NCBI RefSeq assembly: GCF_026571515.1
Contig: NW_026866846.1
Span: 62,001-126,000, forward strand
Reading direction: 5' to 3'
DNA length: 64,000 nucleotides
Source of the DNA: Ruditapes philippinarum
Lineage: Eukaryota
Made by a program: the position numbers and the translations under genes. The notes under the pieces are model-generated. The model saw only the letters and a list, made by a program, of their open reading frames with translations. It did no database searches and had not been told where the DNA came from. Each line of letters starts with the position of its first letter. Positions within the stretch are counted from its first letter, which is position 1. This document shows positions 6,301-60,953 of this stretch, one piece after another.

Positions 6301-8241
6301 TTTAAAGTATTGTTTACGTGACGTCACAATGTAGCGCCAAACAGCACGTGCAAAACAATCAAATCAAGTACGCTATTTTAATGTCGCAAACTAGTTAAGT
6401 TTTACATTTATTTCACTTTTAATAATTTTTATTTCGCTTGAAAAATTATAGAGTGAAATAAAATAAACAAACAAAGTTTTATCAACGTTTCCAAAATTCG
6501 TTATTCTACACACAGAAGATTTAACGACAGTTTTTTTCATACCACTGGAACGGCCTGTAAATCTTGAAAAGTAGTCCGGCAAAGAGGTGCTCATTCATGC
6601 ATACCACATGATCAAGTGCCGTAGATCAGTAAAAATATACGGCACCTTGTTATCGGGCCGAAATTGATACAAGTGACAGGATAATAAACATTTTATGTAG
6701 AAATAGTGGATGTGAAATTTATAACACATCTCATAATAAAAGCTAAACCTGTCCATTTTGTGTTTACTATATTTTAAAGTTTAAGTTCTACCTGCAAATA
6801 TTATAATAATCATAAATAAAAAAAACTTAAGCACGAATACAAATTTAATATACATTTATCATATTATCTTTTAATTACAAAAGAGACACATTCATGAAAA
6901 ATTTCCGAAACATGTTTCATCCAAACTTTTCTCTACGATAAAAGTAAAGAGAAACTGCCACAAATCAAATAAAACATTAATTTGTGAAGCAACCTATCCT
7001 TGATAAATTGGAAGAAATTTACCGGACATCGATATAACAGACGGACAAGAGCATTACCATAATACACCGACTGAGATAGAAACATCAGAAGATTTATTTG
7101 AATGTTTTAAGGCACGATAATAATATATAATCGGAGAATTGTAAATATCACGAATGTCACAAGGTGACTATGTTAACATCACTGGTGGAAATTAAAAGAT
7201 AAATCTGTTTATTTTAGGAATCGATCCCCATAAAGTCGTTTTAGATGGCACCTTCATAGTTTCTGCTCCAGCTCTAAACAGACCTTTAAACGATTTGACC
7301 TTAGTTAGTCAAAATACTGCTTATGAAAAGAACATCGTCGATTTCGGATCATTAATAAAACCATTACCAGACATTGGTGTAGAAACGGCTACTGCAAAAG
7401 ACGCCATCATATCCAATCCAGAAGGTTTACTGAATAGCATTACAACCTTCGCTGATTCCATAAGGCAAGATTTCAAAAACGAATTAGGATCTATTGATAA
7501 CAGACCTCAGCTATTTAACCCTGCTACCTTTGCTAAAAATGTAAACGATTTTCCTCTTTTCAAGAACCTTCCTTCACCAGAACATAACAAAGGTAACGAA
7601 AGAAAACGATCAAAATTTGAAGGTTTAACACTTGTAAGGAACGCCGACGGCGGTGTTGTTTTCCGACGCATCGGTGCTTCTCCACACCACCAATCATCAA
7701 GTCAAGGTCTGAATGTGGAAATTATATCTATTGAAAACAGAAATGTTTCAGACTCTTCAAATTTTGAAAAGGGTCATACTAGTCAAAAACCGATACCTCC
7801 ACAAACTCTTGAGAAGAAGAAATCAGCTGAACGTAAGTAATACATTATACTTTTAAATGGATCTTATGGATCTTACGCCGACATACATACTGTTATTCCC
7901 CAATAAGGAGAGATTTTGTATGTACAACAAATTCTTAACTGTTTGATATATTTCTTGTAGAACTTTTTTAATATAAATAACTTAATTGTTATTTTATTGC
8001 TAAACGTCTTTTCTTATTTACCACCAACTCATATCGCTTTACTATTTAATATATTTACCTATTTCTTTGTTAGGTGATTTTGAGGTTTCTTAATTTAATA
8101 ATACAAATTGTTACACAACTATTATTTTTAGATACAAATGCAACATGTACACCCTGCGTTCCGGATCAAAGATGCCCAGAAATGCAATATTGTTTTTATT
8201 CACCTACCTGCGCCAGACAAATATGTCAGCCATTGAATTAA
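3340..8241 (+). CDS. Cluster gene A: secreted Cys-module/low-complexity protein, ~302 aa
   Basis: Exons 3340-3369 (MILGLSFYIF), 4408-4488 (LLICLGMVWIGNAHVLPKGFHLSNSCQ), 5788-5860 (PRCQSGKTCVVYRGNDGNAHVTCK), 7218-7832 (contains ORF 7295-7840), 8132-8241 (TNATCTPCVPDQRCPEMQYCFYSPTCARQICQPLN*). All GT-AG, phases 0,0,1,1, 909 nt in frame. AATAAA at ~8317. Confidence 0.85.
3724..3935 (-). mobile_element. tRNA-derived SINE (in intron 1 of gene A)
   Basis: Reverse-complement homologue of 2751-2975, with gggtttgaacc (B-box rc), ttaaccactcc (A-box rc) and the core cttgctcaaggaaacaac. Confidence 0.75.
4807..5020 (-). mobile_element. SINE-like repeat with (AAAC)-type tail; second copy 58011-58220
   Basis: gtttggtttggttttatggcgcaccagcacaatttaggtcat...gttacaaactt...ggctgca aligns over ~200 bp with 58011-58220. 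Confidence 0.7.
5905..6690. mobile_element. Non-autonomous DNA element with terminal hairpin (Crypton-like architecture)
   Basis: Hairpin agaataataggttagtgccgtgga...tccacggcaccaatctattattct, followed by tttatcctgtcac, whose inverted copy gtgacaggataa lies at ~6673. Superfamily assignment is inference. Confidence 0.5.
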
Positions 8242-10087
8242 TTCAGGGCGATCTCATGTTTGTGAATATCAAATTATGTTTATCTACATCTTGCTTATTT
8301 TAATTATTTTGTTCGTAATAAATCATTATTAACAAATAAATTCCAGTGTTTTGTTCAAATATTATTGACATAAACATTACAATAATTTTTCTTTTCTTAA
8401 TTTGTTCATTATATTGTTAATGTTACCGGAGTCATAAAAACGAATTGTTGTTCCCACGATATTTGTTTCCTTTCTTCAAATATTGTATATTTGGTTCCCA
8501 AACACACATTGAAGCTTTCTAGAAAGGGAGATTTGTCGAGAACAATGAAACACACAAATATAATACTCTAGCTTGTTAAAACCTGATAATGAGAGTTCAT
8601 AAAAGGTTCAATGCCTCTTACGCCTACTGAACCCGGACGGAGAAATTATGTTAACATGTTTGTATGAGTGTATTATATATTTAATGTGAATCCATTTACC
8701 CGTTAAGACACAAAAACAGTTTTCTCGGTCGGGTACAGACCTCGGAGATATCACCAGTCTTGTCCTTTAAGGGTTAATTTTAAAGAACAACGTGCTGATA
8801 ATTAACCTCCATTCTATTTTCACGGAGTTCTTAATGTACAGTAACCTGAGACAGTTTGAAAATGAGGAAGCGCTGAAAAAGGCTGTTATGATTATGGACC
8901 TGCCTTTCAAGCCGTTACTATCTCTGCTCTAGGGGCTCACGCACCCTCGGCTTTAATCAGGATACCGGTAGCTAACTTCATACAAAATATGTTGTGCCGA
9001 ACTGTATAGATCATGCAAACTTGGTGTCTTACATGTCGCAGTCGGTATTCAATCATCTGCCGAACGCGATGTTATGTGCCTTCTCAACGACGTGCACGTA
9101 TCGAGGGGAAGAGGCATGTAGCTGTAACGCACTTTCCGTCCTTTGAAGAACTCTGTTAATATTAAGAATCAATAAACCATAAAACTTGAAACAAATATAT
9201 GGATGACGCATCAATGACAGCTTTACAGAATATTATCTTGCTTCATGATTTTTGTAAGACAGACGTACTTTAAAAAATATATTTCAATTTAAATTTCGCA
9301 ATCTTGTGTTCATTGTTTTACAATATTGAGATTTATACAAATAGATGTATGCATAGTTCATTACAATAAAATTGTACACAACAGTTTTAATCTTGACTGA
9401 ATGTTCGACCATTCAATAACAACAAAGTCAGTAATATTAAAATCTAGTCCGTGCTTTGATTTTTTGTGCACACGTGATAAAGACGGCGACACCTATAAAG
9501 GAAACATTGAAATCCGGACAATAATGATAATATGACATCAATGTCTTGGGTGAGTATTAGTAATAATATTAAAATCCCCCAAAATAACGAAACTACATGT
9601 GAAACAAATAAAAGTACTTATTAATGTAATATCGGAACTGTGTAGTAATTTGCAGATTTGTTGCACCATTAAGAGTTATCGCTTGTGTTTCGTTAGCCTA
9701 TCACGTAAATACAGGATTTAATATGATACAATGCATATATCATTGTAAAATGACAAGCATATTTCAGCAATAAAATTCTGAATAATGTGTGCAACTTTAA
9801 TTTCATTGTTTCAATGAAACTACTTAATATTTGTGGTCATTTTAAATGCTAATTAATCATCAATGATAAAGGATTGTTTTGATTGTTACTTATCCGCTTT
9901 CAGTTAAAAATAGGGAAAACAATAAATGTACAAGGTGAACAAATCTCTGGGTTTTAGTGTGAGACATATGTCTTTGTTTAGATATGATTGATCAAGTGAT
10001 GGTTTATAAGACTTGTTTATTTGCAATTCTGCAATAATATTTGCAACGTTTGAAATTGATAATATCTTTTTCCATTTGGATATAGTT

Positions 10088-13000
10088 ATGAACAACTTTT
10101 GTTTCTACCGCCATATTGTGATAACACTGGTAGGTAATTTTACTTATTTTAGTTATAGAAAAAGTATGATAAAATATAATTGATATACTTGTCAATTATA
10201 AGATATAAACACATGATGTTGTTGTTTATGTTACTTGAGACATCAGAAATAGTATGGTGTAGGTCAATGATCTCCTCTGTTTATTGTTCCTACACAGAAG
10301 CAGATCTTTATCAAGAACTGATAATATATGTTTGACAACTATTGAATAAAGTAATCCACACGAATCTTGCTCCTTAGTCAGTGTGTGTTAATTTCCAAAC
10401 ATAACAAAAAAATTGAATAACAGAGGCAGAGGTATGTGATCCCTGTTCACTGTGATATCGGACCGAAACTGTTGCACGTCGATCTGCATTTCATCAAATC
10501 ATTTATTTCTTCAATAGGTTCTTTCAATAAGCTTACAGACAAATGCATATTTTTCTGTGCAACAGGCAATGATTTCATTGATAATGGCATACATAAAGTC
10601 CAATTTCATTTGCTTTTAATCTACTTTTAAATTGCATGCATTTGTTATCGATTGCATGCATATTTTATTTATTTATTCATTTATTAAATTTTTCTTTCTT
10701 CAGATCATTTTTCAAGAAATGGTGGTCTTGTCCCTTTCTCACCGGGTTGGAACGTTTCAACTACACCGGAATATATGTAACGTGAGTCTGATTTAAAACT
10801 AAACAATATCTGCAAAGGTGTAGGCTAAGTAAGACGTTATACAAATCAGCATTTGTTTACATAAAAATGTCCTTTTAAAATCAAATTAAAATTATGTCAA
10901 TAAATTTACATGGGAGAGCAACATCCACGAAACAAAACATGTTACTTATAACATCAATACCCATACATAAATATACGTGTTACAAGTAACTGCCTTTTAT
11001 TTGTGAAAGTGAACAATTATCTAATAAGAGAGAGGAAACATGTTAAAAGATATCTTTTTGCTTATGCCAAACAGAGTTGTAGACCTGTTATGCGGCATTG
11101 TCTTTTAACATCTTATATTTGATAAAGTTACACAATATGATTAATTTGTTTTTTTCAATTGAAGTGTCTTTGTTTTATATTTGATAGACTATTATGGTCT
11201 TTTAGACTTGACTTATTGTGTAGGCAACAACAATGTTAACTTAACAATAAATGATTAAGCGTTTTTAAGCTTTGTGTTTTGTTTCTATATTTGGTTTGAT
11301 GAATACGTTCTTTGTTTTTATGGCTTTTTTGTTGTTGGTTTACATGTCCAGCAATAAAATATTCATAAATAGAAATAAACATACATGTATGCGGTTAGAT
11401 AATTGATTGCTTTTACTTTTTGTAATAATTGCATATATATTAAGCTAATTGTTTTGAAAACAATAATTTTGATTCCCGTCTTTACATTACCTTAAATAAG
11501 ACATATCAGAATTGTTTTTGATACAATCGACACATTTAAAAAAATGGTAGTATATGTATAAGAAAAAAATGTTTATAATTTTTTATTTAATTGATACGGT
11601 AAGAAAAGTAATTGGTAACATATTTATATTTCTTTTACAGAGAAGATGTGGAGGGTATCTTGCATGCATTGTTAGGGGAATAGAACAAAGGTGTGATCGT
11701 AAGTACCAATTAGGCGATACAAAAACAACAATTGTTGGAAATCTGATTGCATTGTAAACAACATGGAAAGCCATCTGTTTGTAGTTCTTTAAGTGTATAA
11801 AACTATAAATCTACTGCCTGTAGTTTACAAATATCAAAACACATGATTAACAAAGTAGGGCGGCGTTCAATGAACACAAGTCCCCCCCCCCCCAACTCAG
11901 GACCTGCGGCAAGGAGCCCAGTAGAATACCAAACAGGACAGGGCACACGGGCAAAATTTTGTTAGAAATTTAAGAAAGAATGATTTCAAAATATCTATAT
12001 AAAATAAATATGTTTGAGTATTTCTTAAAAATGTATAACACTATTTCAGATGAAATAGTTTTATAGAATTTAAAAACGATAAAATTATGCAAAAAAGATC
12101 CGAAACAAAATATAATTCTGCTATTTTGAATAGGTTTTTTAACTGTTGAAAAATGATTTTGTGCGTGCGTGATTCTCTCAAAAGGATATATACCAACAAA
12201 TTTCTTGAATGTAGGAATTTTGGAATTATTCTTTCTTAAATTTCTAACAAAATTTTGTAATTACAAGCAGCATATTTATAGTTTCATACACTTAATATCA
12301 AATATATCAAAACTTTAATAAAATGCAAGCAGCAAGGATATAGCTTTTTACACTTTAAGAACAAAAAGTGATAAATGGTGAAAACCATAGTAAAATAATC
12401 AAACGTCATGCTTTGCTCCCTTTTACCGCGCAATATTCATTAGTAAATAAATATCAGATACTTTCTTTGTTACAACTCTTACAAGAATTAATATCAATTA
12501 GTTATAGAAAACAGATATATCTCATGTTTCAGCTCTTTCAAGAATTAATATTAATTATTTATAATGTTCAGATACGTGCTTTGTTAAAACTCTGGCAAGA
12601 ATCACAAATTATGTTAGGTAGTCGATAGATTACATAATTTTTTTGAAAATCTTGAAAATGATATAGCTTAAAACAATTTGAAAAAGATGAAAAACAACAT
12701 TATATTGTTTTAGATATAGCCAATGCAGAAAACCTAGCATCACATGAAAACACATTTGTAATAACGAGACGAAATAATCTAGGATTTGTTTATCCAAACG
12801 AAATGCTTTCGGATAGGCAATTATCGGCTAACAATCATGTTATAGTACCTCAACCACTCGACTTATCAGGTTCGCAGCCAACTACAGTATTGAACCATGA
12901 ACAACAAACTGATGTTATAACAAGACACAGATCGGAACAAGATCTACACAATAGCCGAATTGGACAAGGTACTAGTTGAAATGATAGTAAATAACTTGAA

Positions 13001-13796
13001 AAAACTGTTGTGTTCTAGTCAAAAAAGTATAATTAAAACATCTCATTTGATAATAGTAACTAGAAGCACTTTGTATGTTAAAATTAATTCCAATGAAATA
13101 CCTTTGAATTTATCGGCCTACTTCTTAATTAAACTGTAATTATTCTGTAATCTTTTATCCTGTTATACCATGACCATATATATGTTCTAAACAGACTCAG
13201 CGTTGGTTGAAATGGTTGAAATGTTCAGATACGAAAATTCTAGCGATCAGAAATTATCGGCGTAAACCAGTTAATAACTTTCATTTTTGTGTTTCGTATA
13301 ATTTCTTTTCATATGTTTATTTCTCAGCAATAGCCCACACTCTTCTGCATAAAATTGGTAGAAATAGACAGGTGCCATTATCACAAAACAGTAGAAATAT
13401 TACGTCATTTGGACGGCGAGATTCTAAAATAAAACTAACAGACGATAAACAAGGGAACCAACCGACTGTCAATAGTGAACGAACAACGCCACCGGCCATA
13501 AATTCAAACGCAGCGCAAGGTAAAACATTCATATTTTCATATACATTTTGCTGCGACTATTTTCCTTTTCATACTCACTGCAAATTATAAGTAAAATTTG
13601 ACTGCAAGGAAACACTAGAAATTTTATCTCAGAAATATTATTATTTTCTGTTTTCTAATAATCCGTTGTTAAATATAAACTCTTTCCAGATAAAAGTGCC
13701 ACCTGTACAGTATGTGACAGCAATTCAGATTGCACGGACGGCAATTACTGTTACTACTCTGCAACATGTGCCAGGCGAACATGTCAACCTCTCTGA
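10088..13796 (+). CDS. Cluster gene B: secreted Cys-module/low-complexity protein, ~243 aa
   Basis: Exons 10088-10129 (MNNFCFYRHIVITL), 10704-10781 (IIFQEMVVLSLSHRVGTFQLHRNICN), 11641-11698 (RRCGGYLACIVRGIEQRCD), 12714-12968, 13328-13519, 13690-13796 (KSATCTVCDSNSDCTDGNYCYYSATCARRTCQPL*). Phases 0,0,1,1,1, 732 nt in frame. AATAAA at ~13886. Exon 1 choice is the least certain. Confidence 0.8.
11789..12295. mobile_element. Palindromic MITE bounded by TTAA (Kolobok/piggyBac-type target), with an internal insertion at ~11835-11950
   Basis: Left ttaagtgtataaaactataaat pairs with right atttatagtttcatacacttaa. Inner arms aaaattttgttagaaatttaagaaagaat / attctttcttaaatttctaacaaaatttt. Confidence 0.65.
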
Positions 13797-18588: not shown

Positions 18589-21500
18589 ATGGATTCACAA
18601 AATTATATCATTAACATATTCTCTTTGGTAGGTAAATTATTTTATGTTTGATTTTGTTGTAACTTTATTATCACGTGTATTTTAAAGATTGAGTAAAGTT
18701 AAGGTATTTGAAGTATTGATAAGGTTTACTTCATTTTATTCAGTGTAATTTACATCTGCGGTTTTTTATTGAAAAGAAAAACCAAAGCATTTACATTTCA
18801 GCCTTGATGCATGGCGATAAGTTTTTCTTACACTACTGAAATTAAGGGATCAATTGCAGAAGTGGATTGAATAATTGAATTTTTATCATTTGATTTTGGC
18901 AGTTGGTTTAATAAAAAGGAATAAAATATCTGGTTAAAATGTCACTTGAAATATTTTAATATACATTCTATATATATATTATTTGTAATGATTCAAGTTA
19001 AAATTCGAGAAAGAGTGTCTTTAATTTCTTTTCAATATGTTTTCGGACTTTCCATACTATTTTTGCAGAATTTATTTATCCGATTGGGAAAGAGAACTGT
19101 CATATATCCTTAATATCATATGATAAATAAAAAATACTATCCTCTGTTTATTTCAGATATTATGCATATTCCCAAATATATTGTACACACAGCGTATAAC
19201 ATGCCCGGTAAGTAACCGATGTATCTATATTTACTCTTAAATAATTATAATACTGCATGTTTCATTGAATAACCGTGACGTTTATATAGTGTTTAATATA
19301 CACGGCTGTTGTCGATTCATGAAGAAATCTTTTTTCTCTAAAAATGACGCTTGCTGTATTATTAATTCGTTATAAAGATCGTTGACAGGTTATATGGCCG
19401 AACATAAACGGCTGTTTGCAATATAACCATAGAAAGCTGTTTATAAAGGGCCATATAACCTGTCAACGATCTTTATAACTAATAATATACACGGCTGTTG
19501 TCAATTTTTGAAGAAATCTCTTTTTCTCTCTCTAAAAATCAAAGTTTGCTTAATTATAAATTCGTTATAAAGATTCTTGACAGGTTATATGACCGCATAT
19601 AAACGTTATTTGCAATATAACCTTCGCATAGCGGCTGTAACATAACTAACTATACAAGACTGATTGATTAAAACGACCCAAATTTCTCATTAAAACTTTA
19701 AAGGGAATACTACAGTAACATGTTGTACAGTAAGACATGCAGACATAATAAAGACAGTTTGGTAGAATTCTATTTAATACTTTGCATTACCTTAGATAGT
19801 GATAACAGAAACATTGCCAGCGAAAAGTACAGTATTTGTTCCCCAAAATGCATCAAGTGCATTAGAAAAATTCAGTTATTCTATAACAATCAATAATGTT
19901 TGTCAATTTTAATATTCTTCAGCGTCTTGTTTAGATATATTTAGTATTTCCAATACTTCTTGTATGACGATGAGAATTTTGAAATACACATTTTTATCGA
20001 ATTCTGGAGAGGTGTTCTGTTCAATGTGACCTAGAAAAATGTAATATGGCCAATAATTTTAACTCTTGACTTGTATTATTCCTCTCAGTTTGAAAATTAA
20101 ACAATAACAAATATACTAAATCATGATAGCTAAACGCACACCGATCGTTTACACAGGGACCGTACACTGCTTTAACTAGAGTAACACGAACGATTCACCT
20201 TGAAAGCTACAAAGTTGACAGTTCAAATTGTGTCTATTTTGAAATAATTTTGCTTTTATGAGATCAAAGTATTTTGTGACTGAACTTTTTCAGACACCAT
20301 GTGACATCGGCTACACATGTGCAATGGTTAGACATGGGACACAACCTTCAGCGCCTGGTTGTATATGTAAGTGCCAGCTCTTATTGACGTCATGTTTAAA
20401 ATAATAGCAACATCCATACATTCGATATTTTATATTTTATACATTCAATCAATCGTTAAGAAATACAGATACAATTAACTGATCTTATATTAGGATATTT
20501 AAAACATCTACAGGAACTCTTACGTTAAAAATTAAATCGAAATTTTTAAGATATTAAAAAATTTCCAATTACATTTATGAAAATAAGGTTGAGAATTGAT
20601 TTGTATAGGCTTTTTATATATTAACAGCAATGCAGGAGGCAATTCTACTGCACCAAGCAATAAATGGTGGTCCCAGTGGTCCAGGATCTGGTATAAATAA
20701 TCAAGTTGGTGTTGGTATCCAACAGCAAACCCCGGGCTTTCCACAGGCACCACGACCAGGAGACCCAATTCCACCTTTTCCACAAGGAGCTGGAGGGACT
20801 ATCCCAGGCATGAATTTTCTTGGTAGTACTGATCCAAGGGAACCGGGTTTTGAACAAAGATTTGCACTAGGTTTAGGTGGACAACAACGCAACTTTGGAT
20901 TTGGACCCCCTGGTCAAGTAAATGGACAATTCGGACGACCACAGGTACCAACAGGGATGTCTGGACCAGCTTTTCTTGATCCAACTGCAGGCCAGTTTGC
21001 AGGTCAAGCTCCTGGTCAATTCCTTGGACCTTCCGGTGGACAGTTTGGTCCAAATGCTGGTCAATTTGGACCAAACGCTGGTCAGTTTGGTCCAAACGCT
21101 GGTCAATTCGGTCCAAATCCCGGTCAGTTTGGTGGGCCACCCCCGGGTCAGTTTGGTCCAAGTGCAGGTCAGTTTGGCCCTGGAGGGCCAATGGGATTCA
21201 ATCCCCAAGTTGACGGTGGGCAAAATATTTCTTCCTCTGCATCTGGTATTAGAGATAACACTAACATAGCTTGGCATGACTTTAGCCGTGGTGGTGGTAG
21301 TTTCCCAAGACCCGGTCTATCTGATAATCGTGCAGGTTCTTTTCAGCAAATAACTGATGCAGTCGATCAAACCCCTATTCGGATCGGTCAGTTAGGCCAA
21401 TTACCTCGTAATTTCGTTGAACGACCAGGTACATTTGGTACACGCCAAGGTCGTTTTGGGTTGCAGCCAAGGACCGACACATTCGATCCGAATTCTAACC

Positions 21501-24500
21501 AGTTTGGCGCTGCTGGAATAGAAATTCCATCAGTAGGATTTAATCCACAAGTGGTTGATCTAAGTATTGCTCCAACTCCATCTGTTCCTCACAACAGAGA
21601 TATGAATAACCAAATAAGTAATGATTTTTCACACGTTAGTCATGAGGGTAGTCATTCACAATTTGACAGGTCTAGACAATCCACCGGAGGGTTTGGTTCA
21701 ATGTCGAGTGTTCCCGATCAAACTGCTGGCCAGTTTGATCCACAACCACATGTAGACGGTGACAAAAGTCATATATCGCATGGAAGTGACAACAATTTTC
21801 CTCAAAGAAACAGTAGATTTCAAGGTGAGCAGTTTCACACTGACTTTGTTCCACACACTGACCCAAGACCCCCTGTCCAAGAAAACGTACAAGACATACC
21901 TGATGGTTTTGTAGGACAAGATTCGCAACAAACTAATTTTGAAACATTTGTTAATACCCCTCCAATATTGACTTTACCTGAACAAGGTTTACTGAACCGT
22001 GCCGGTTCAGCTAATCAAATTCCTTTGGGTACACGTGTGGGTTCTACAGAACCACAATCAAATATAAATAATGCTCCAATGTTAGTAAAATTAGACGGTG
22101 TAAAGACAGCTTCTGTGGGAGAACATTCTGTTGAACAAAGTAAAGTTTCTTCCATTAAAGAAGATTCTGCTGGGTTACACTATGTGTTTTATCCGCAGAT
22201 TAATGGTGCAGGGTTTAGAGTTAACATTACGAAGGACGGATTTTGTCCACGTGATTCAATGACACGCGATAGGAGCACGTGCATGAATAGCTGCTATTCT
22301 GATGAGAAGTGTCCACTTGAACAAAAATGCTGTCCAAGTGGATGTTCTCTTAGATGTCGAAAACCTAATTTAGCAGTTCAGGACCTTAATTCACGTCAAC
22401 AAGACGCCGAATTTAGCAATATTTCAGGTAAGTTTTTAACAAATATGTAAATTTAACATTTTTTTGCAATATCTGTCTTTTTACATTTAAAAGTTCGAAA
22501 AGGGTTAGATAAGATGAACAATTTATCAAAACAATGGACACTTTTCACGTTTACGTTCCAAACATACAAAATAATATGCACTTAACATACTGTTAACATC
22601 TTGCGTATTCAAATATTCATGTTTTAGATTTCTTTTTAATTTTAAATCTTTTATTTGTTTCAGAAGTAAAACATAAAAAAGAAAATTTGTAAGACATACT
22701 CGTATATACAATCAGATAAAAGAAATGTTAAAAACACGCTGCAGTTAGGATGAATTACAACTCGGAGTAAAAAGAGTCCCGCCAACAAAATTCATTGAAC
22801 CAGTATCTCTAACGGTCTTCATTATGTCACTTTATTACAAACCTTAGGAACATTATCAATCATATTTTAAGTTTCATCATTAAGACATTTATGTAGTTAC
22901 TATATATTTCTTTTTCATCCTTTTTGCTATCATTATCTTTGTTTTCAATTTTAACAAGTTCACCTTGTTCAATGATGTTAAGCTGTCAATTTTAAGCGTA
23001 GAAGCGCCTCTGTAAACAATACTTACATATATTTAAATGCAGAATGGAAACATAATTAGATTTCCCTTCATATAAGAAAATACTAATGCTTTTGTCATTT
23101 CGTGTTACACATCAGCAGAAGAATAAATTTAAGGAATCATCAATAAATAATAGAAATATACATAAGCTAAACATAATTACAAAATGATTTATCATTGTAA
23201 TACAAGTTTAAAAGTACTTCAGTCATAACTATTGTCTGGAAAAAGTGCTGAACTATAATGTTATAAGTAATATAGACGTACTGACGGTAGTTTGGTCTCG
23301 TTTGTACTTTTATCTTCATAAATAATAATGTTTCACATGAAATTGTATGTAAGGTCAACAGGTCAAAAAGTTTATTCTTGTAGGTAACAGCATACAAAAA
23401 TAATGGTATAAATCATCATTAATGACAATCGCCACTACATACTGATTTACGTATAAAATAACAATTGGGAAAATGTGTGTTTTATGGTCTATTTTTTGCT
23501 AAAATTCAGTTTAATTGTTAACGCGTTCATTTATGCCCACTTTCGTATAATAATTATAATAATACTTATACAAGCATTTGCAATGGCGTTTCATAACAAT
23601 TGGTATAAATTTCAGAACAAAGTCCACTTATTCTGGTAAGCCACAATGACAAAACATCGTTGTTTTGTTCATCAATGAATGTATCTTTCTTTACCGTTCA
23701 AAATGGCCCGCAATCTTTATATCCTTTAAATATTTACTGGTGTTTTATTGCATGAAGTCACACTTAACTTACCATACATAGGAAATTTACCGTAATAAGC
23801 ATGTTAGAATCGTGTCTAAATCAACCTTTTCAAAACATCTTCATCACAACAATTACTCTTGTTTGCTCCAGTATGCTTGTGTATAATCCTTTCCGTAATA
23901 AAATTTAAATTGCATGATTCTATTTCCTGTTGAAAACAGCAATAATTCCCCCATAGTTTTAGTTGATGCATGATCTCATTTTTAAATGACCAATAATAAA
24001 GTAGTAAAATTAATCTTTTAAATATCGCCACATGTAGCACTTAACAATAAAATAATAATTCATCATTTTCTATATTAAATATACATTGTATTACAAGCTA
24101 TATTTTATTTTTCATTGTTTTTATTTCTTACAAAGAATTATATACCAAATTCTGCCAAAAACATTTTTACCATACGTTTTGTAAATCATAGTAATACAAA
24201 GTGCTTCATTTATTGCACATTTATTCTAAATTCCTATTTCTATATAATTTACTATATAATGCAAAAACATTATCTAAAACATTTTACATTTAACATGATA
24301 ATTACGTTGAACAGTTATTTTTTGTCATTTGGTTAAACTACATTGTTTTCTTATTATTTCCTCTTTCACTATGTTTCATAATTATGTTTTCCCCATATTT
24401 ACAGCCGTAGAAGCAATGTGTCGACCTTGTAACTCTCACATGGATTGCAATTCACAGGATCAATTTTGTACGACAAGTGCTTATTGTGGACAAACCATGG

Positions 24501-24526
24501 TTTGTAGGCAGGTGGCTCGGAGATAA
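18589..24526 (+). CDS. Cluster gene C: large secreted Gly/Gln/Pro/Phe-rich protein with WAP domain and N- and C-terminal Cys modules, ~694 aa
   Basis: Exons 18589-18627 (MDSQNYIINIFSL), 19157-19207 (ILCIFPNILYTQRITCP), 20294-20366 (TPCDIGYTCAMVRHGTQPSAPGCI), 20628-22427 (1800 nt, ORF 20630-22450), 24405-24526 (VEAMCRPCNSHMDCNSQDQFCTTSAYCGQTMVCRQVARR*). Phases 0,0,1,1, 2085 nt in frame. Confidence 0.9.
19250..19640. mobile_element. Hairpin-type non-autonomous DNA element (second copy 33225-33510, opposite orientation)
   Basis: Palindrome gttataaagatcgttgacaggttatatggcc...ggccatataacctgtcaacgatctttataac, shared with 33232-33367. Confidence 0.7.
20990..21181 (+). repeat. Coding tandem repeat GQFGP(N/S)A, ~21-24 bp unit, ~9 units
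   Basis: GQFAGQAP GQFLGPSG GQFGPNA GQFGPNA GQFGPNA GQFGPNP GQFGGPPP GQFGPSA GQFGP, with synonymous variation between units. Confidence 0.9.
22232..22366 (+). other. WAP (four-disulfide core) domain within gene C exon 4
   Basis: KDGFCPRDSMTRDRSTCMNSCYSDEKCPLEQKCCPSGCSLRCRKP has the KxGxCP start, CxxxCxxDxxCPxxxKCCxxGCxxxC and 8 Cys. Confidence 0.9.
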
Positions 24527-26797: not shown

Positions 26798-26919
26798 GTT
26801 CAAACGTCGCAAGAATTGAAACAAACTGTAAAGGTTGCGAGGCAACAGAAAGTTGCCCAAGTGGACAATACTGTTACTTTTCTTACGCATGCGCAATTCA
26901 AATATGTCAGCCTTTGTAA
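26798..26919 (+). CDS. Orphan terminal 6-Cys exon (alternative last exon of C, or remnant/partial gene)
   Basis: Acceptor ttttattcacag, phase 1, SNVARIETNCKGCEATESCPSGQYCYFSYACAIQICQPL*. Cys spacing and CQPL end match genes A/B. No convincing dedicated upstream exons found. Confidence 0.75.
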
Positions 26920-45955: not shown

Positions 45956-46035
45956 TAAATGTATGTTTATCAACTTATATTGAATGATATATACTTTGTA
46001 TGTACTTGTCAAGTCATTAGTTTAATATGTTCAAA

Positions 46036-49000
46036 ATGGATACGGAAAAATCGAAAATGGTCATTTATTTTTTGGTAAGAAATGTTTACTTTATTGCAAC
46101 AAAACTTTGAATGCGGATTTAAACATTATGCTATCGAATAAAACAACCTGACAGTCTTATTAATTCCTTAAAATAATTTATATAATCGTGTTAGATAGTC
46201 GTGCAGACAAGCAGTTTCATGGTCATAAAGTATTGGTTGCTTGCTAATTTATCCATTATCATTAAAGTTTTGACCTTAAAACATGTCAAAAATAATACTT
46301 ACTTAATGTAAAATTTTGTTCATTCTGTTTTCATATGGATATTATTTTGCAATAATCAGATTCAGTTCTACATGCAAAAAATACATTGTAATCTTTAAAA
46401 AATATAAAATAACTAAAAGTAAATGTTAAAATTACCTTAAAACCTCTCTCTCTGTTGTTTAATTTGTATGACCTGCTTAGTCTTATATTGTACATTATTT
46501 CTTTAAAGTTGCTGGTCATATGTATTAGCCATACAGTTGATGCTATCCCCTGTCCGGTAAGTATTTACTTAGTCATTTCAAAGAAACTAGTAATACAATA
46601 CATTATATGGATAAATAATAGTGCTCAATTTCTCAATTACTTACTTTTTAAGTCGAGCATTTTTATTCAAAATTTGTGTTTGATATATTTAGTGGTTGAA
46701 AAAAAATATATTGTCAAATTTAAGCGTTCTTTTTTCAAATTCTTGGAAACATTTACTCAACAACAACTTATCATTTGATATTATATGATATTATCAGCGT
46801 ATCATGCTGTGTAAAATTTCAAAACATAATTTCAGCCACAAAGCTGTTTTGTCTTTGTACAATCAACATTGTTCCCAATACATCTGTCGCGCAAGTGCGT
46901 CTCGACGGAAAGATGAATTTTATTAATGCTTACTTTACCCTATGTAAGAGTGACACATGTTTCATATAAGCTTAAAGATTTCTGCTCAATCGTGGATGCA
47001 ATTGGTAATTTGATTAGTAAATATTGAAGAAAAAGAGTGTCGAGAGTGATACATTCTGTGCATGCCGGAAGAAATAGTAAATTGAATTATTATATCAAGA
47101 TCTTAATTTTCAACTCCTATAAGACTTTATTTCCTACATTTACTTTTATTGGATTATAAGGTTATGATTAATTGATTTTTTATGTAAAAAGTTGGTTAAT
47201 ATTTAAAATATGAATAAAAAAGAACCACAAGGGATTCCGTTAACGAAACGCCCAAATAGACTGCAACCGAGAAGGGCAGCTAAAATAATACTCCTTCTAC
47301 AGGCTTATACTCAAATGTTACATAGAACAACTAAACATAAGAGAGAACATTTTAAGTTACGTAAGTCCATTTTCATTGAGTTAGTACTTAAATATTTACA
47401 GAATTGGTATAGATACCGGGTATGTCACGGTCGCTCTTGTACTGTTGTAAGGCATGGTTTTGGTCGTGCAAGGTACGATTGTCTATGTAAGTAACACCGT
47501 TTATGATTTATTTTTTTACACACATTCTACTGATATAATTCCACGCAATCATGTACTTTGATTTATGACTGTCTATTATGTAATTTTCTACAAAGACCGA
47601 AATGAACCATCTCCTCCTAAATACGTAAAAAGGCCCTTTGAACTTATTTTTTTTTTTCATAGTTAACTTTTCAACAGAATTTAATCGATTTTATATTAAA
47701 TTTAATATATTATCATTTAACGAATTACATGTTTTGGTAAAATGTATTTAGTAAGTAAAGTCAGGATTGACAATTTGATAATTATCGCATTTTTGCATTA
47801 GGTACAGGATTCCTATTTTGAAGTACATTTTGACTCCATATGACTTTTTTTTATTTTTTCGGCTCTTCCCTGTATTTTTACACTTTTATATGTATATTGT
47901 GTAAATGACTTTTACTTCTGTTTTACCTTTAGTCCGATAAGATTATAACTATAAGCTACTAAAAAGATCAGTTAGACAATAACTACTATATTAAAGATTT
48001 ATTGTTCTTCTAAATAGCCGCACAGGAGGCTGAATTATTACAAAGAGCTCTTAGTGGAGGTGCCACAGGTCCAGGTACAGGATTAGGAGAATCTCTACAC
48101 GGACGGTCAAGATTATTAGATCTGTCAGAACGCTTACAACTTCATATCAATATCAACAATGACAACAACAATCAAATTAATCAAGCCGATTCAGGAAATG
48201 TTGCAGTCAGCCAAGTGAACGCAGAATGTGAGTTAATGTTAAGAGCACCTATATTCTATAAGAATATAACAATAAGAAATAAATATTTGAAAATTAAAAT
48301 AGAAAGGAAAAGAGGAATTTGATAAAGTTTATATGATGTTCACTGTAGGTGATCGTGATGTCCAGTAAAGCTCAGAATCTGAAAAATTATTTCATAAATG
48401 TATGATAAAATGTCTTCTCTTGAAAAAGCATATACATGTATAGGGTGAGTTAGTAATATATAAAAGCTATAAAATAGTGTCATAATGAAAGACTAGTTAT
48501 ATGTTGTCTATTTTTTTCTTTTAATTTCGTCAAGATAAATGCAAAATGTTGATTTCTTAAACAGTGCAGAATAATTATATTTTATAAACTTTCTAAAACT
48601 AATGTTTTTACGAATTTCTTGAGTGTTACTGTCTGCATTGAATTCAATCGTAACATGCCAATACTATTTGAACTGCGTCACGACAAAACCAACATAGTGC
48701 GTTTGCGACCAGCATGGATCCAGAACAGCCTGTCCATCCGCGCAGTCTGATCAGCATCCATGCTGTTCGCTTACCAGCCCTATTACAAAAAAGAGAAACT
48801 GATAGCGACAGCTTGGATCCTGATCAGACTGCGCGGATGCACAGGGTGGTCTGGATCCATGCTGGTTGCAAACGCACTATGTTGGTTTTGTCATGGCGCG
48901 GCTCATTTTGTTTATTGCAGTGTCACCAGATCAGTGTCAAGCATGTCCAAATGGAATATGTCCGGGACAACAACATTGTGTTTTTACTTCCTCCTGCCCA

Positions 49001-49036
49001 GGAATGGAAATGTCGTGTCGGTCAATTACTGGTTGA
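46036..49036 (+). CDS. Cluster gene G: paralogue of F with intact N-terminal Cys module, ~165 aa
   Basis: Exons 46036-46074 (MDTEKSKMVIYFL), 46509-46556 (LLVICISHTVDAIPCP), 47402-47486 (NWYRYRVCHGRSCTVVRHGFGRARYDCL), 48018-48227 (AQEAELLQRALSGGATGPG...SGNVAVSQVNAE), 48921-49036 (SPDQCQACPNGICPGQQHCVFTSSCPGMEMSCRSITG*). Phases 0,0,1,1, 498 nt in frame. Confidence 0.9.
48669..48905. mobile_element. Palindromic MITE in the last intron of gene G
   Basis: ~100-bp inverted arms: gacaaaaccaacatagtgcgtttgcgaccagcatggatccag...catccgcgcagtctgatcag / ctgatcagactgcgcggatg...ctggatccatgctggttgcaaacgcactatgttggttttgtc. Confidence 0.9.
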
Positions 49037-50905: not shown

Positions 50906-51393
50906 GTTTGTCTCTATTATTTTTTCGCACCAATTATCCCGCCTCTTAGTAACAGAATAAGCAGAACTCAATGTTTAATACTATAAGAATCTTACACTGC
51001 CTGCCGGTACAGACTGGAATATCTAGGTCGAGGGTAACTGTTTACGGCGGTAACGAGGCTCTTTTCAGAACAGAAATTACGGAAACAGATATTCTCATTA
51101 CGCACTTTTTTCTTATATTAACGTATGAACTTACAACTTCATTCATAACGGTAAAATGACGTCATATTAAGAACGTAATTTATTTATAAAAGACGCGCGG
51201 CAATGACGACATTTTAAGCACGTAACTTGTCTTACATGGGGGCTTAAACTGTAACGGTAGATAATCATGTCTGATATGCGAGAAAATACGGTTCTGAAAT
51301 CAATTATCCCGAAGGACAGAATATATAACAAAAAAAAACTGAAATGACGTACGGAGCATCAGATATAAAAATAAGATAGAACGAAACCGCTAA

Positions 51394-53786: not shown

Positions 53787-54496
53787 TAAAGAACACCTAA
53801 AATCGCGCCAATAAGACAGTCATCTTGTAGACCAGAAACGAAACTAGACAACTCTGACAACAAAAGATTGTTTTCCTTCTTCCACAATGCTTGCCCTGCA
53901 AGACTATACTGTTAGACCCAACTTCGACATTAAGTCGAAACATTAGCCGTGTAGGACTGCTGTGATGAAATAATATCAAATAACACCCTACCAGACTATG
54001 GGAAATGGACACTGGCGTAAGTTCAAGTTGATTAAAGCTTGCAATAACATACTGCAACGGCGAGCGAAATATTTTCATCAAAGGGAATTTAAAGGAACGG
54101 ATATTTCATACATTGTCATAGAGCGGCAAAAAGACATTAATATTTTCAACCTGTGTCAGCCTAATGTTTTAAAATACTAAAGAAATTCAATGGTTAATTT
54201 AAACATCTCATGCTTTTTAATTATGATACTCCAAATATATAGATTTAACCTGTCACAATCGTTCTTTAACATGCTCACTCCGCTTATTTAGTTAAGACGT
54301 TATGTGAATAGTTTTACCCCTCAATGAATATAAAATAAATTTATACTAATTGATGCAAATTTATTTCAAAGGACCAATCAATTTTATTTGTCATGTCCTC
54401 ACCATTAAAAACATTGACGTACTTTGTTGATTATTTATTTTGTATTTATTTTTATCTTAAAACGTGTTATTATTTAACTGATGAGCGGACAGCTCA

Positions 54497-54503: not shown

Positions 54504-54567
54504 AGATGTTCAATTGACACTTTGGCTAAACATACATTTAGTACTGCCTTTGCAAAGGATTGCAATA

Positions 54568-56515
54568 ATGGGTGCTTTAAAATCACTTGCTTGCTGCTGT
54601 CTGTGTCTGGTAAGTATTTCATCCTTTTTTATATTGAAAGTTTTTTCATAATGATTAGCATTAATAATATAACATTTCTATCGCTTGTGTAAACTTTTCT
54701 TTCGGCTGTTGGGATATACATGCAATACTCTTTTTAACATTCTTACGCAAAGCACTTATGTTAACAACATGATGTGAACGATATTTAACTTTTCATTGAC
54801 TAACAGCCTATTAATCTTTAATGTTTAGTGATAGTTATATAAGTATGAATAATGTTGTCTTTAACTACATCTAGAGCTAATCATTGTTTTTGTTATTTTC
54901 CAGGTGGTTTGCTTTTTGCCAGATTTTACAGTTGCCCAATACCTTTCATCAGGTAGGTTACTTACATGATGTGAAAACTAAACTATGTTTAGATAACTGA
55001 ACGATTAAGATTAATTATAATTAAGAGTGACCTTTTGCAGACATGTTAATAAATTTAAATTTAATCTATAATTCACTTACAAACTTTATAATAGAGTCAA
55101 ATCGTATGTCAATAAAGATTAACAATGGGGCACAACATACACGCAATGAAGTCCCCTCAATTTACTGTAGCATAAGGTTCTCATTGAGGTCGCGCAATTG
55201 GAACACAACAAGCTATAGATAATGAATTATACTTTGATTAAATCATGCTAGGGGAGTTCACTAACGTTTTTTTTATTCATCTGTTAGGATAGTAAAATAA
55301 ACGAAAGTCCTGTATAAGACAAACAAACATCTATAAGAAACAAAGAAAAGTATATTTTGTCTTACAGCATTTGGAGCGATGCGAGGAGGAGTCATGTACC
55401 CTGGATATCCTGGATATCCATCACCAGCAATATACCCACCAGCCGACATGTATCCATCAGGAGTCATATATCCCGGTATGGACATGTATGACCCTTATCT
55501 TGAACGAGGACGACCAATTATAGGCGGGGATCTTATCCATCGTCCTGCCGTTGTAAGCGATAGGTCAGACAGAACTGTAGAACACATAAATATATCCAAC
55601 AACAACCAAAATATTCGTGAAGAAGTTGGTTCCGGAAACGTTGTCGTAAATCAAGGTAAGGTAGACAAAGACAGTATTTTTGCTGGCGTTTTTATAAAGT
55701 AATACTTATGGCGATTGGGTTGTTTTGTGTGTGTATGTTTTTTTTAATACATGTATAAGAAATATCCGTATAATACTGAATGGTTAAATATAGCATTCGT
55801 AGCGTTTTTATCGTTTGTGGCAGTGTATTAGCCATTCACATTCTGTTTTATAAGAAACACTATGTTATCTAGCCAAAATAGTCAAAGTATTTTATCTCAT
55901 AGATTTACTTATTTCTTTTACTTAAAGGTCCGTTATGCCTCAGAAATACATGTACTACCAATTTTATTTCTCAAAAACTTTCAATTGTTGGTTATATTGT
56001 TATAGTTTCAAAATAAAACTCATTTGCCGTATACATGGACTATCTTTTGCAACTATAGCTCTGTTGGCCATTGGACTAATTATAATTAATTAGTATTTTG
56101 TTTTGAAGTCAAAATACTATTTTGTTTACATTTTGCTACCTTTGTTGCACACAACTGTATGTTCAACATTACATTCTTTAATTGTGTAACATCGAATAAG
56201 TTCTAAATCCATTATTAATAAACTATATAACTCCTGTTTGGCATTTCTAAAGAATTGAAAAATATTGATTTTTGAGACATTATATGCCTTTAATGATAAG
56301 TTTTAAAAGAAATACATAGTTGAGCAATTGAAATTCATTCATGGTAGAAATTTATACCAAAAATTTTCTTATTTTTAGTTACATCAAATAATGCAATGTG
56401 TAATTGCCAAATTGGTAGATTTGATCAGTGTCCGTATCCTGAACGATGTGTTAGTGAGGGAACATGTACAGGAGGAAGTGGAATTTGCCGGAACCCTGGA
56501 TTGTTTATGATATAG
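54568..56515 (+). CDS. Cluster gene H: secreted Tyr/Pro/Met/Gly-rich protein with Asn-rich motif and CxC-type 6-Cys module, ~171 aa
   Basis: Exons 54568-54609 (MGALKSLACCCLCL), 54904-54952 (VVCFLPDFTVAQYLSS), 55368-55655 (FGAMRGGVMYPGYPGYP...GSGNVVVNQ), 56379-56515 (TSNNAMCNCQIGRFDQCPYPERCVSEGTCTGGSGICRNPGLFMI*). Phases 0,1,1, 516 nt in frame. Confidence 0.9.
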
Positions 56516-58220: not shown

Positions 58221-58381
58221 CTCAACTTTGAAAGGCAATCCCTCAATCACAAGGTGAACAAATATCTTAATTTGAGTACAAGCATACCGGGACAAAAAAG
58301 ATAGTATGTCTGTATAATAAAAAAACATTCAAAATTACGTAATGCTTAATACGTTAATTTTACGGCTTGCGAACCCTTATC

Positions 58382-59281: not shown

Positions 59282-60953
59282 ATGGATATTATCAAATATT
59301 TCGGCTGTTTTGTTTGTTTGGTTAGTATACTTATTGATTTCCATACACATTTAATGCTACAACTTAACTTCTCCTTCAAAAATATTCTACATTTAATAAA
59401 GGCATCTGTTCAAAGTCTCTGTAACAGTAAAATATAGATATATGTTACGTTATCAGAAGCTTTTTTATAATAATTTATTCTATTCACTTATTCACTTTTA
59501 ACTGTGCGTATATTATGTGCCTTTTGCAAAAATATTGAATTTGTAAAGCATAGGTGTGGGATGTTGCTAAACAGACAAATTATCAGAATCTACAATTTTC
59601 GTTTTTATGCTGCCTAAGAACTCCGTTTTTTACAAATATTTCTGTGATTAACTCAGTTATTGTATGTGCATAAAGAAATTCAGTAAGTTTAAATATAATT
59701 TTTATACAGGCACTGTTCTATGGTCCAAATTTCTCGGAAGCACAACACATGATGGGAGACCCGTGTAAGTTTCTTTTTGATTTTATTTCATATTGTCGTT
59801 TAGATTATTATAAAAAATAAAGATACTGTAACACTGAATTCATAAAGTAGTAGTTATTAGAACACAGCTAAACAGATTATTTTATACGTAAAAATTATAT
59901 TTGATAATGTCAAAATTTCAATCATAAACATGGTATTCTGTTTAAACGCTATGGTCTCTTTGTTGACATTCATACAGAAAGTAAAACAAACAATTTTGTA
60001 AATGGTTTATATCTGTATCTGATTTTTCTTTACAGTTTATCCCCGTAGAGGAGGGTTTCGAAGAGGAATGTATCCTAGAATTCCGCCGATAAGGCCGTAC
60101 CCCCGAAGAATAATATATCCTGATACAGGCATTTATGAACCATCAATCCTCCCAGTAGTTCGACGTCCAGCTGTTGTTAGTGACAGATCCGATGCTCGCA
60201 GACAGAATATAAATATAAGCAATAATAACGAAAATATTCGAGAAAACCATGGTTCTGGTAACGTCAACGTAAATCAGGGTAAGTAATTTATATAAGACTC
60301 ATAATAACATCTTAGCACTGATGACCTTCTCCTATTACCTTAAATACTAAATGTAAGAAACATGCGTGTTTCGTGCGGGAATATCAATATAGCGAGCCAA
60401 CAATATGTGCTGCCATCAGCTAAAAAGGCTTATCGGGCAAAAATATGAGTACGCTCAGTTTCTGCCAGCTACATAGGCTAAGGAAATGACTCTTGTCTTT
60501 TGTAATTAGCATGTACTCAGTTAAGACTATTTGAACTGTAATGATTATCATATTTTTTCCAGACTGATATCACTTTAACACACATCTTGTAAGTATGAAA
60601 TAAAACCAGATAGGTTTGTCAGTATTTTTGAAATGATCATTACAGTTATAATATTATTATAAGATAAAATGTTAAAGATTTGTTTCTATGATAAAGTTAC
60701 TTGTACCTTGTTAAGTTGTTTTTAAATAGCTTTGTACTAGATTCCATTAATGCATACACACTTATAAACAAACAATATCATTTCAGTAACAAACTCCAGA
60801 ACGAGAAGATGTGACTGTCACGCAGATCCGTTTATGCAGCAATGTGGACCATATCAACGATGTGTTCGAGACAGTACTTGTACCGGAGGAGCAGGTAACG
60901 GCGTGTGTCAAGACGCTGGTTTTGGTGGGGGCCATGGCGGAATGATGATTTAA
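59282..60953 (+). CDS. Cluster gene I: paralogue of H, Arg/Pro/Tyr-rich, ~167 aa
   Basis: Exons 59282-59320 (MDIIKYFGCFVCL), 59710-59764 (ALFYGPNFSEAQHMMGDP), 60036-60278 (YPRRGGFRRGMYPRIPP...GSGNVNVNQ), 60787-60953 (TNSRTRRCDCHADPFMQQCGPYQRCVRDSTCTGGAGNGVCQDAGFGGGHGGMMI*). Phases 0,1,1, 504 nt in frame. AATAAA at ~60978. Confidence 0.9.

What the first reader, a model, noticed from the sequence alone, without database searches (positions are those of the whole stretch)
8132..60953. Nine copies of an unrecognised C-terminal 6-Cys module in four spacing classes
Seen spacings: A, B and orphan C-2-C-5-C-5-C-5-C-4-C (Y-C-aromatic-aromatic-S..CA...CQPL); C and D C-2-C-5-C-6-C-5-C-4/5-C; F and G C-2-C-4-C-5-C-5-C-6-C; H C-1-C-7-C-5-C-5-C-6-C and I C-1-C-8-C-5-C-5-C-8-C. 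There is no adjacent CC, so it is not the C-C-CC-C-C knottin framework or WAP. It has its own phase-1 terminal exon except in D. Inference: a compact three-disulfide domain with fixed Cys and fast-evolving loops, either a cross-linking/targeting handle or a released bioactive peptide.
Basis: partly seen in the sequence, partly recalled or inferred. Interest (0 to 1): 0.7.

Follow-up and report, generated by a model that had tools for sequence, protein, structure and literature searches.

The report
Six-cysteine cap on clam secreted proteins
Seven neighbouring Manila clam genes end in a small six-cysteine domain that matches no catalogued family, also occurs in the hard clam, and likely stays attached as a folded docking cap on proteins predicted to be secreted into a structural matrix, rather than acting as a released defence peptide.

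Summary
In detail: nine six-Cys modules with the stated spacings, eight on their own phase-1 terminal exon. The window is a Ruditapes philippinarum tandem cluster. The nine modules belong to seven genes: 'orphan' and 'D' are alternative 3' ends of gene C in RefSeq, and a Mercenaria orthologue has the same C-to-D form. No module reaches a Pfam cut-off, and PDB sequence matches are weak. A family profile finds a matching cluster in Mercenaria mercenaria and unnamed assemblies (22 six-Cys modules in all). AlphaFold predicts a small hairpin fold of the knottin/WAP superfamily; the Cys spacing fits a WAP core lacking one disulfide (inferred; no sequence homology signal). Loops differ between classes, but classes C and D are conserved across species (69-79% against 21-39% in spacers); F-I classes are less so (29-46%). 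Synonymous change exceeds amino-acid change in 6 of 6 paralogue pairs. Modules are near neutral, with no shared cleavage site. This argues against a hypervariable released peptide and for a retained cap on a Gly/Pro-rich matrix protein. Tissue and ligand are untested. A new family on a known fold; moderate interest.

The parts
8132..8241 (+). Gene A terminal exon, module A (2-5-5-5-4), phase 1
4408..7832 (+). Gene A upstream exons: 4408-4488 (signal-like), 5788-5860 (4-Cys N-module, rest), 7218-7832 (spacer); first coding exon not placed with confidence
   Evidence: my model from GT/AG and frame; no RefSeq protein retrieved
10088..13519 (+). Gene B (LOC132733987) exons 1-5: signal, 4-Cys N-module, spacer
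   Evidence: P0005 mapped; three joints in run X6
13690..13796 (+). Gene B terminal exon, module B (2-5-5-5-4)
18589..22427 (+). Gene C (LOC132733981) exons 1-4: signal, 4-Cys N-module, LLxQAxxGGxxGP motif, Gly/Pro/Gln-rich spacer; internal donors after 21215 and 21824
22244..22357 (+). True 8-Cys WAP domain inside gene C exon 4 (isoform X1 only)
   Evidence: Pfam PF00095 E 1.7e-08; coordinates
24405..24526 (+). Gene C terminal exon 1, module C (isoform X1 and a short form spliced from 21215)
   Evidence: joints in runs X1 and X6
26798..26919 (+).
   Evidence: RefSeq XP_060576666.1; this joint was not among the 15 of 62 joints shown
28072..28164 (+). Gene C isoform X2 internal exon: second 4-Cys module
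   Evidence: present in Mercenaria P0024; joint to 29349 in run X6, table 5c
29349..29953 (+). Gene C isoform X2 terminal exon: spacer plus module D (first Cys 29855)
34741..37462 (+). Gene E (LOC132733982): family member with N-module, both family motifs and His/Gly/Pro repeats, but no C-terminal module
40020..42006 (+). Gene F exons 1-4; exon 3 (from 41144) frameshifted against G; exon 4 carries both family motifs
42575..42693 (+). Gene F terminal exon, module F (2-4-5-5-6)
46027..48227 (+). Gene G (LOC132733988) exons 1-4: signal, 4-Cys N-module, helix-like motif, Asn-rich motif
   Evidence: P0001 mapped; motifs
48921..49036 (+). Gene G terminal exon, module G (2-4-5-5-6)
54568..55655 (+). 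Gene H (LOC132733972) exons 1-3: signal, Gly/Pro/Tyr spacer, Asn-rich motif; no N-module
   Evidence: P0004 mapped
56379..56515 (+). Gene H terminal exon, module H (1-7-5-5-6)
59282..60278 (+). Gene I exons 1-3: signal, Arg/Gly/Pro/Tyr spacer, Asn-rich motif
   Evidence: my model, open from ATG to stop with GT/AG borders
60787..60953 (+). Gene I terminal exon, module I (1-8-5-5-8) with a Gly/Met tail

Best explanation
The module is the last domain of a tandem family of venerid clam proteins; it is predicted to fold as a small three-disulfide hairpin and likely stays attached as a class-specific docking cap on Gly/Pro-rich proteins that are likely secreted into a structural matrix. Shown: gene structure, family membership in two clam genera, alternative terminal modules, conservation. 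Predicted: a short first strand, a turn and a C-terminal beta-hairpin carrying Cys4 and Cys6. Inferred from strand register and the WAP overlay: bonds Cys2-Cys4 and Cys3-Cys6 (a disulfide-directed hairpin core) plus Cys1-Cys5, which equals a WAP core without its first-to-sixth bond. Inferred mechanism: the protein is exported by its signal peptide; folded Cys modules at one or both ends of a flexible spacer bind partner proteins or the polysaccharide/mineral scaffold; the conserved Asn-rich motif would help chains pack by beta-strands; gene duplication and a choice of last exon swap the cap and so the binding specificity. The matrix is most likely of mantle origin (shell organic layer, periostracum or ligament); foot secretion is the alternative.
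For: All nine modules are C-terminal in proteins with a hydrophobic N-terminus (read by eye; no signal predictor was run) and low-complexity spacers rich in G, P, N, S, R or Q. Cross-species conservation exceeds that of spacers: D 22/28 against 113/373 and 67/170; C 20/29 against 109/508; the module tree groups D with Mercenaria D (95) and C with two unnamed homologues (92, 94). pN < pS in 6 of 6 paralogue pairs, e.g. F/G pN 0.15, pS 0.71. Cys4-x5-Cys5 is kept in 22 of 22 six-Cys modules. Net charge -3 to +2; a basic pair or R-x-x-R lies within 14 residues upstream in only 5 of 21 sequences, at no shared place. Alternative terminal modules occur in both genera: three in LOC132733981, two in Mercenaria LOC123553994. 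AlphaFold pLDDT 80.9 for module C; 14 of 48,161 chains reach Z 2 or more, nearly all small disulfide-rich folds, among them omwaprin (Z 2.5, rmsd 1.7, 29 aligned, model residue 7 on chain residue 21, which puts Cys2 on WAP Cys3 by the numbering). Analogues in print: quagga byssal proteins combine Pro/Gly/Tyr repeats, an ordered six-Cys region and GNVVG repeats (PMC6474901); WAP domains occur in the shell proteins lustrin A and perlwapin (PMC5854119 passages).
Against: No tissue, localisation or binding data were obtained. None of six family motifs matched a family peptide in the Mya shell peptide table (one unrelated hit). The F/G/H/I classes are only 29-46% identical to their nearest homologues, about the same as the H spacer (31-34%), so strong conservation is shown for C and D only. 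pS is near saturation on 28-44 codons, so episodic positive selection is not excluded. Fold matches are all weak (best Z 3.2-3.8; no Foldseek match at E 0.001), ICK toxins rank as high as WAPs, and module I is low confidence (pLDDT 59.8). AlphaFold can mis-assign disulfides in such peptides (PMC11035057 passages), and I could not read the model's bonds. Gene E lacks the module, and A, B and C lack the Asn-rich motif, so neither part is required in every member.
Confidence: 0.5

Rival explanations
1. The module is a tethered protease inhibitor that protects the secreted matrix, as WAP and squash-type knottin domains do; different classes would block different proteases.
For: Structural neighbours include EETI-II (Z 2.9), the SLPI half-domain (Z 2.5) and 6atu (Z 2.4, rmsd 1.3; elafin by my recall). 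Carboxypeptidase-inhibitor Pfam E 0.11 for B. Isoform X1 carries a true WAP next to module C. Protease inhibitors are common in shell and foot secretomes (PMC5854119, PMC5549309 passages).
Against: On the WAP overlay the long loop between WAP Cys1 and Cys2, which holds the elafin reactive site (recalled), is absent; no conserved Lys/Arg/hydrophobic P1 position is seen in the 22-module alignment. All matches are below significance.
Confidence: 0.18
2. The module is cut off and acts as a defence or signalling peptide (knottin-like antimicrobial, chitin-binding or ion-channel active); the rest is a pro-region.
For: Own terminal exon, tandem duplication and loop diversity resemble peptide families such as MgCRP-I (PMC4558851). 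ICK peptides lead the fold lists, and tachystatin B is the only match for module I (Z 2.1). Module I has R-x-x-R directly before Cys1.
Against: MgCRP-I has a conserved dibasic site, net positive charge and positive selection in the mature peptide; here there is no shared site, charge is -3 to +2 and pN < pS. The upstream parts are 130-650 residues long and carry their own conserved folded modules (84% identical N-module plus motif in C), unlike a disposable pro-region.
Confidence: 0.12
3. The cysteines serve intermolecular disulfide or thiol-quinone cross-linking or redox control in a curing secretion, and the module has no specific ligand.
For: Cys-rich proteins are associated with the byssal cuticle in Mytilus (PMC6474901 passage). 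Two Mercenaria members have a four-Cys version.
Against: An even number of Cys with fixed spacing, paired loss (6 to 4) and a confident monomer model for C point to intramolecular bonds; class-specific loop conservation implies a recognition surface.
Confidence: 0.1
4. The proteins are mucus, gamete-coat or larval secretions, not shell-related; the module recognises cells or glycans.
For: Two raw RNA runs laid on the B/C region gave only low depth (about 1-2 reads on the large C exon in X21, none in X23), which fits restricted expression; no shell proteome link was found.
Against: Gamete-recognition proteins usually diverge fast between species (own knowledge), whereas C and D are conserved. 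The tissues of the runs are not given.
Confidence: 0.1

Closest known systems
WAP four-disulfide core (PF00095; omwaprin, elafin, perlwapin, lustrin A WAP)
   Same: Predicted hairpin core overlays on the C-terminal part of WAPs; the spacing of WAP Cys2-3-4-5 (3-5-5) equals Cys1-2-3-4 in one homologue (3-5-5) and is close in the rest; a true WAP sits in the same gene.
   Different: Six Cys, no CC doublet, no N-terminal WAP loop; no Pfam WAP match; the module profile scores two WAPs no better than Cys-fixed shuffles (58 and 99 of 300 shuffles reach the score).
Inhibitor cystine knot / disulfide-directed hairpin peptides (lambda-MeuKTx, tachystatin B, EETI-II, framework IX conotoxins)
   Same: Six Cys, about 30 residues, short strand plus hairpin; top fold matches.
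   Different: The extra Cys lies in the hairpin loop rather than next to Cys3, so the inferred bonds (1-5, 2-4, 3-6) are not the ICK set (1-4, 2-5, 3-6; textbook); the module is part of a large protein and is not cationic.
MgCRP-I of Mytilus (PMC4558851)
   Same: Bivalve, secreted, six Cys, module on the last exon, gene duplication.
   Different: C-C-CC-C-C array, short pre-pro-peptide, dibasic site, phase-2 last intron, positive selection, reported only in Mytilus.
Dumpy DPY, Dickkopf N-terminal and DUF7107 modules
   Same: C-x5-C-x5-C core; weak matches (Dumpy E 0.18-0.2; Dickkopf_N E 0.011; Atlas feature scores 0.78-0.82).
   Different: All below curated cut-offs or the tool's bar; they cover only the central Cys; these occur as tandem repeats or larger domains, not as a single terminal cap.
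Dreissena byssal proteins Dbfp5 and Dbfp7 (PMC6474901, PMC12993968)
   Same: Secreted, Pro/Gly/Tyr repeats, an ordered six-Cys region (Dbfp5) and Gly-Asn-Val-Val repeats that resemble the end of the family's Asn-rich motif; Dbfp7 has 33% beta-strand by CD.
   Different: The Dbfp5 Cys region is central and contains a CC doublet; no family motif was found in the paper's text or supplement. An analogue, not a homologue.

Membership tests
WAP four-disulfide core | Eight Cys including a CC doublet | tested here: not met
   Six Cys, none adjacent, in 22 of 22 modules
WAP four-disulfide core | Match to Pfam PF00095 | tested here: not met
   0 of 9 window modules; only the separate internal WAP of P0007 and P0028 matches; profile test no better than Cys-fixed shuffles
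WAP four-disulfide core | Fold of the C-terminal hairpin core | tested here: inconclusive
   Omwaprin Z 2.5, rmsd 1.7, 29 aligned; tied with ICK rows
Inhibitor cystine knot | Bonds Cys1-4, 2-5, 3-6 forming a knot | not testable with these tools
   Model bonds are not returned; strand register suggests 1-5, 2-4, 3-6; AlphaFold is unreliable on this point (PMC11035057)
Inhibitor cystine knot | Small triple-stranded sheet with C-terminal hairpin | tested here: inconclusive
   Predicted for C (pLDDT 80.9) and weakly for I (59.8); best Z 3.2-3.8 and 2.1
MgCRP-I | C-C-CC-C-C array | tested here: not met
MgCRP-I | Short pre-pro region ending in a conserved dibasic site | tested here: not met
   Basic pair or R-x-x-R in 5 of 21 sequences, no shared position
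MgCRP-I | Positive selection in the mature peptide | tested here: inconclusive
   pN < pS in 6 of 6 pairs, but near saturation and no site model was run
Lustrin Cys repeat, EB, chitin-binding CBM14, Dickkopf_N, DPY, DUF7107 | Pfam match at the curated cut-off | tested here: not met
   0 of 9 window modules and 0 module matches among 19 homologues; best is Dickkopf_N at 16.5 bits against a cut-off of 25
Molluscan shell matrix or byssal proteins (functional class) | Signal peptide plus low-complexity regions and small Cys domains | tested here: met
   Architecture and composition; signal peptides judged by eye
Molluscan shell matrix or byssal proteins (functional class) | Recovered from shell, periostracum or byssus; mantle or foot expression | tested here: inconclusive
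   No family motif or accession in two clam supplements; run tissues not given

The most novel reading that the evidence does not exclude
A venerid toolkit for building extracellular materials: chains that self-assemble through an Asn-ladder beta motif and end in an undescribed three-disulfide 'WAP minus one bond' domain, swapped as an address tag by alternative last exons in a way kept in two clam genera.
Probability: 0.2. Interest if true: 0.62.

Novelty: new variant of a known kind. Interest (0 to 1): 0.36.

Why it matters
It defines an unnamed clam protein family and domain that databases label 'uncharacterized' or misname ('collagen-like', 'decreased expression in renal and prostate cancer protein-like'). 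If the bonds are 1-5, 2-4, 3-6, it is a natural reduced WAP-type scaffold with tolerant loops, of use for understanding how knottin, hairpin and WAP folds relate. If the matrix role holds, it gives testable parts for how burrowing clams build shell coverings, a group with few characterised matrix proteins. It does not overturn any general principle: lineage-restricted, Cys-capped low-complexity secreted proteins are common in molluscs.

Tried and rejected
No whole genome is held for this window, so the cluster's ends were not mapped. Pfam, NCBIfam (a prokaryotic library) and PDB sequence searches gave no significant module match; two short N-module queries were out of frame and are void, but the same modules were covered within P0003 and P0040. 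Alignment A3 held one out-of-frame exon and was not used. ESM Atlas: feature hits under 0.9 for the orphan module, no usable hit and TM under 0.4 for G. Word-index search with G alone found only itself and a fragment. The search for related loci could not use alignment A6. Run search: no RNA holder listed. Complex prediction of three copies of mature G: no answer, alignment not used, no evidence either way. Sequence homology to WAP was tested and not found. The two four-Cys Mercenaria variants were considered as a guide to disulfide pairing and rejected: the lost pair can be read in more than one way. P0027 among the 26 profile hits is an unrelated four-repeat protein and was dropped; P0002 and P0008 are intron read-through fragments. 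Literature: no paper held the accessions, six family motifs or 'bivalve + disulfide-directed + hairpin'; searches listed no description of this family (listings and abstract starts only). Subscription papers such as the Manila clam and Mya shell proteomes (recalled) were not searchable and could hold these proteins under other names. Earlier scan notes: nothing.


Full report
Observation. An order-4 Markov null gives one match in 200 windows (the pattern was fitted to the claim). Eight modules follow a phase-1 acceptor; D lies within a long exon. A profile of 22 modules finds no further copy in the window.

Identity and gene structure. A profile of the nine modules retrieved RefSeq proteins of Ruditapes philippinarum that map exactly onto the window: B = LOC132733987, C = LOC132733981, G = LOC132733988, H = LOC132733972; E = LOC132733982. 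LOC132733981 has three RefSeq isoforms ending in module C (X1), the 'orphan' (X3) and D (X2), so nine modules belong to seven genes. Contigs of two runs whose RNA status is a guess show GT-AG joints for three introns of B, for 22427-24405 (both runs), for a further in-frame short form 21215-24405 (X1) and for 28164-29349 (X6). Only 15 of 62 joints were shown, and the joints into the orphan exon and into 28072 were not among them. The C-to-D form is independently supported by a Mercenaria protein with the same parts in the same order (P0024); the orphan joint rests on RefSeq alone. Models for A (first exon unplaced) and I are mine. Gene F has a one-base loss and a lost donor in exon 3.

Family. 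A profile of the short members, run over 1.84 billion representatives, gave 26 hits at E 0.001 or better: 3 are window proteins, 1 is unrelated (P0027, dropped) and the rest share family motifs or are fragments of these genes. Of 20 looked up, 6 are Mercenaria mercenaria proteins on one 88-Mb record (consecutive LOC numbers for four of them), 8 Logan, 3 ENA and 3 JGI; a seventh Mercenaria gene came and a further Ruditapes member outside the window (LOC132733989). Every named source is one of these two venerid clams; the unnamed ones cannot be placed, so the range beyond Veneridae is open. Shared parts are a hydrophobic N-terminus, an optional four-Cys N-module (A, B, C, E, G), a motif LLxQAxxGGxxGP, a low-complexity spacer, an Asn-rich motif ending in SGNVxVxQ (E, F, G, H, I) and the terminal module. 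In all, 22 six-Cys modules and two four-Cys variants were collected; Cys4-x5-Cys5 is invariant. Mercenaria LOC123553994 also has two isoforms with different terminal modules.

Evolution. Module D is 22/28 identical to its Mercenaria orthologue while the spacers are 30% and 39%; module C is 20/29 identical to an unnamed homologue against 21% in the spacer. Against this, G and H are only 29-46% identical to their nearest homologues, whose orthology is uncertain. In six of six paralogue pairs pN is below pS, with pS at 0.64-0.86, that is old duplications (28-44 codons, so weak per pair). The classes are therefore old and at least partly conserved, not a hypervariable repertoire. Net charge is -3 to +2, and there is no shared processing site.

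Fold. AlphaFold gives module C a bridge at residue 7, a short helix-turn and a hairpin at 19-24 and 30-35 (pLDDT 80.9); module I shows a similar three-strand pattern at low confidence (59.8). Foldseek has no match at E 0.001. The wide aligner lists 14 of 48,161 chains at Z 2 or more, best 3.2: ICK peptides, EETI-II, four WAP-type chains (one named by my recall), agouti and Dickkopf; module I matches only tachystatin B at Z 2.1. These scores show a common small disulfide fold, not a family. Cys4 and Cys6 face each other across the hairpin and Cys5 sits in its loop; with the omwaprin overlay this suggests bonds 2-4, 3-6 and 1-5, the WAP set without its first-to-sixth bond (WAP pairing from established knowledge). 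This is inference: I could not read the model's bonds, a sequence test against two WAPs was negative, and AlphaFold has mis-paired Cys in a comparable peptide (PMC11035057, passages).

Known families. No module reaches a Pfam cut-off; PDB sequence matches are Dumpy DPY (E 0.18-0.2) and lambda-MeuTx (E 0.48). It is not MgCRP-I (PMC4558851, abstract and passages), not WAP by Cys count, and not the Dbfp5 Cys region (PMC6474901: passages, section 13 part 1 with Table 2, section 22, supplement part 1 of 3 and a supplement search). PMC5854119 (passages and supplement search), PMC6003135 and PMC5549309 (passages), PMC12993968 (passages) and PMC9781830 (supplement search) give analogies or blanks only. 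Searches for accessions and motifs found no paper; the library lacks most subscription journals.

Mechanism. The best reading (0.5) is a retained, folded, class-specific docking cap on a secreted structural protein with flexible spacer, often with a second Cys module at the other end, most likely in a mantle-derived matrix. Gene structure, conservation and charge are shown; fold is predicted; connectivity, secretion, tissue and binding are inferred. Rivals are a tethered protease inhibitor (0.18), a released defence peptide (0.12), plain cross-linking or redox control (0.1) and a mucus, gamete or larval role (0.1).

Verdict. A real, apparently undescribed domain and gene family of venerid clams on a known small disulfide scaffold: a new variant of a known kind. 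Interest 0.36. It would rise to about 0.6 if the reduced-WAP bonds, exon-swapped targeting and Asn-motif self-assembly were shown.

Noticed in passing
window 41805-42005, 48020-48226, 55547-55654, 60170-60277, 37061-37159: An Asn-rich motif (alternating Asn/Ile, an Asn run, then SGNVxVxQ) is conserved at 44-56% in homologues, more than the C-terminal module in these classes; it resembles one rung of a curli-like beta-solenoid (resemblance recalled) and the GNVVG repeats of Dbfp5/7.
   Followed up: partly
window 19157-20710, 35661-36793, 46509-48100: A four-Cys N-terminal module (C-x3..9-C-x4..5-C-x8..14-C) followed by the LLxQAxxGGxxGP motif is the most conserved part of gene C (47/56 identical to Mercenaria); no Pfam match.
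   Followed up: partly
window 22244-22357: A true WAP domain inside gene C exon 4, kept only in isoform X1 and conserved in homologue P0028 (31/46 over the region).
   Followed up: yes
window 21215 to 24405: An in-frame short splice form of gene C seen in run X1 that is not among the three RefSeq isoforms retrieved; homologue P0030 has a similar short layout.
   Followed up: partly
window 41144-41226: Gene F exon 3 has a one-base loss and a degraded donor against G, yet its later exons look conserved (pN well below pS): a recent pseudogene, a rescued splice or an assembly error.
   Followed up: partly
window 37297-37450: Gene E ends in three 16-residue His/Gly/Pro repeats instead of the module; a JGI fragment (P0026) has five, so the repeat number varies.
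   Followed up: no
window 60918-60950 and Mercenaria P0019, P0031, P0041: Gly/Met-rich tails follow the module in the H/I class, recalling Gly/Met-rich ligament proteins (recalled, not tested).
   Followed up: no
window 30500-31860: A 62-bp tandem repeat of about 20 copies between genes C and E.
   Followed up: no
window 71-310, 38115-38502, 50789-50918, 62948-63077: Dispersed repeat copies with short open frames, probably decayed transposon pieces; 53400-54100 is a further GC-richer stretch with open frames on both strands.
   Followed up: no
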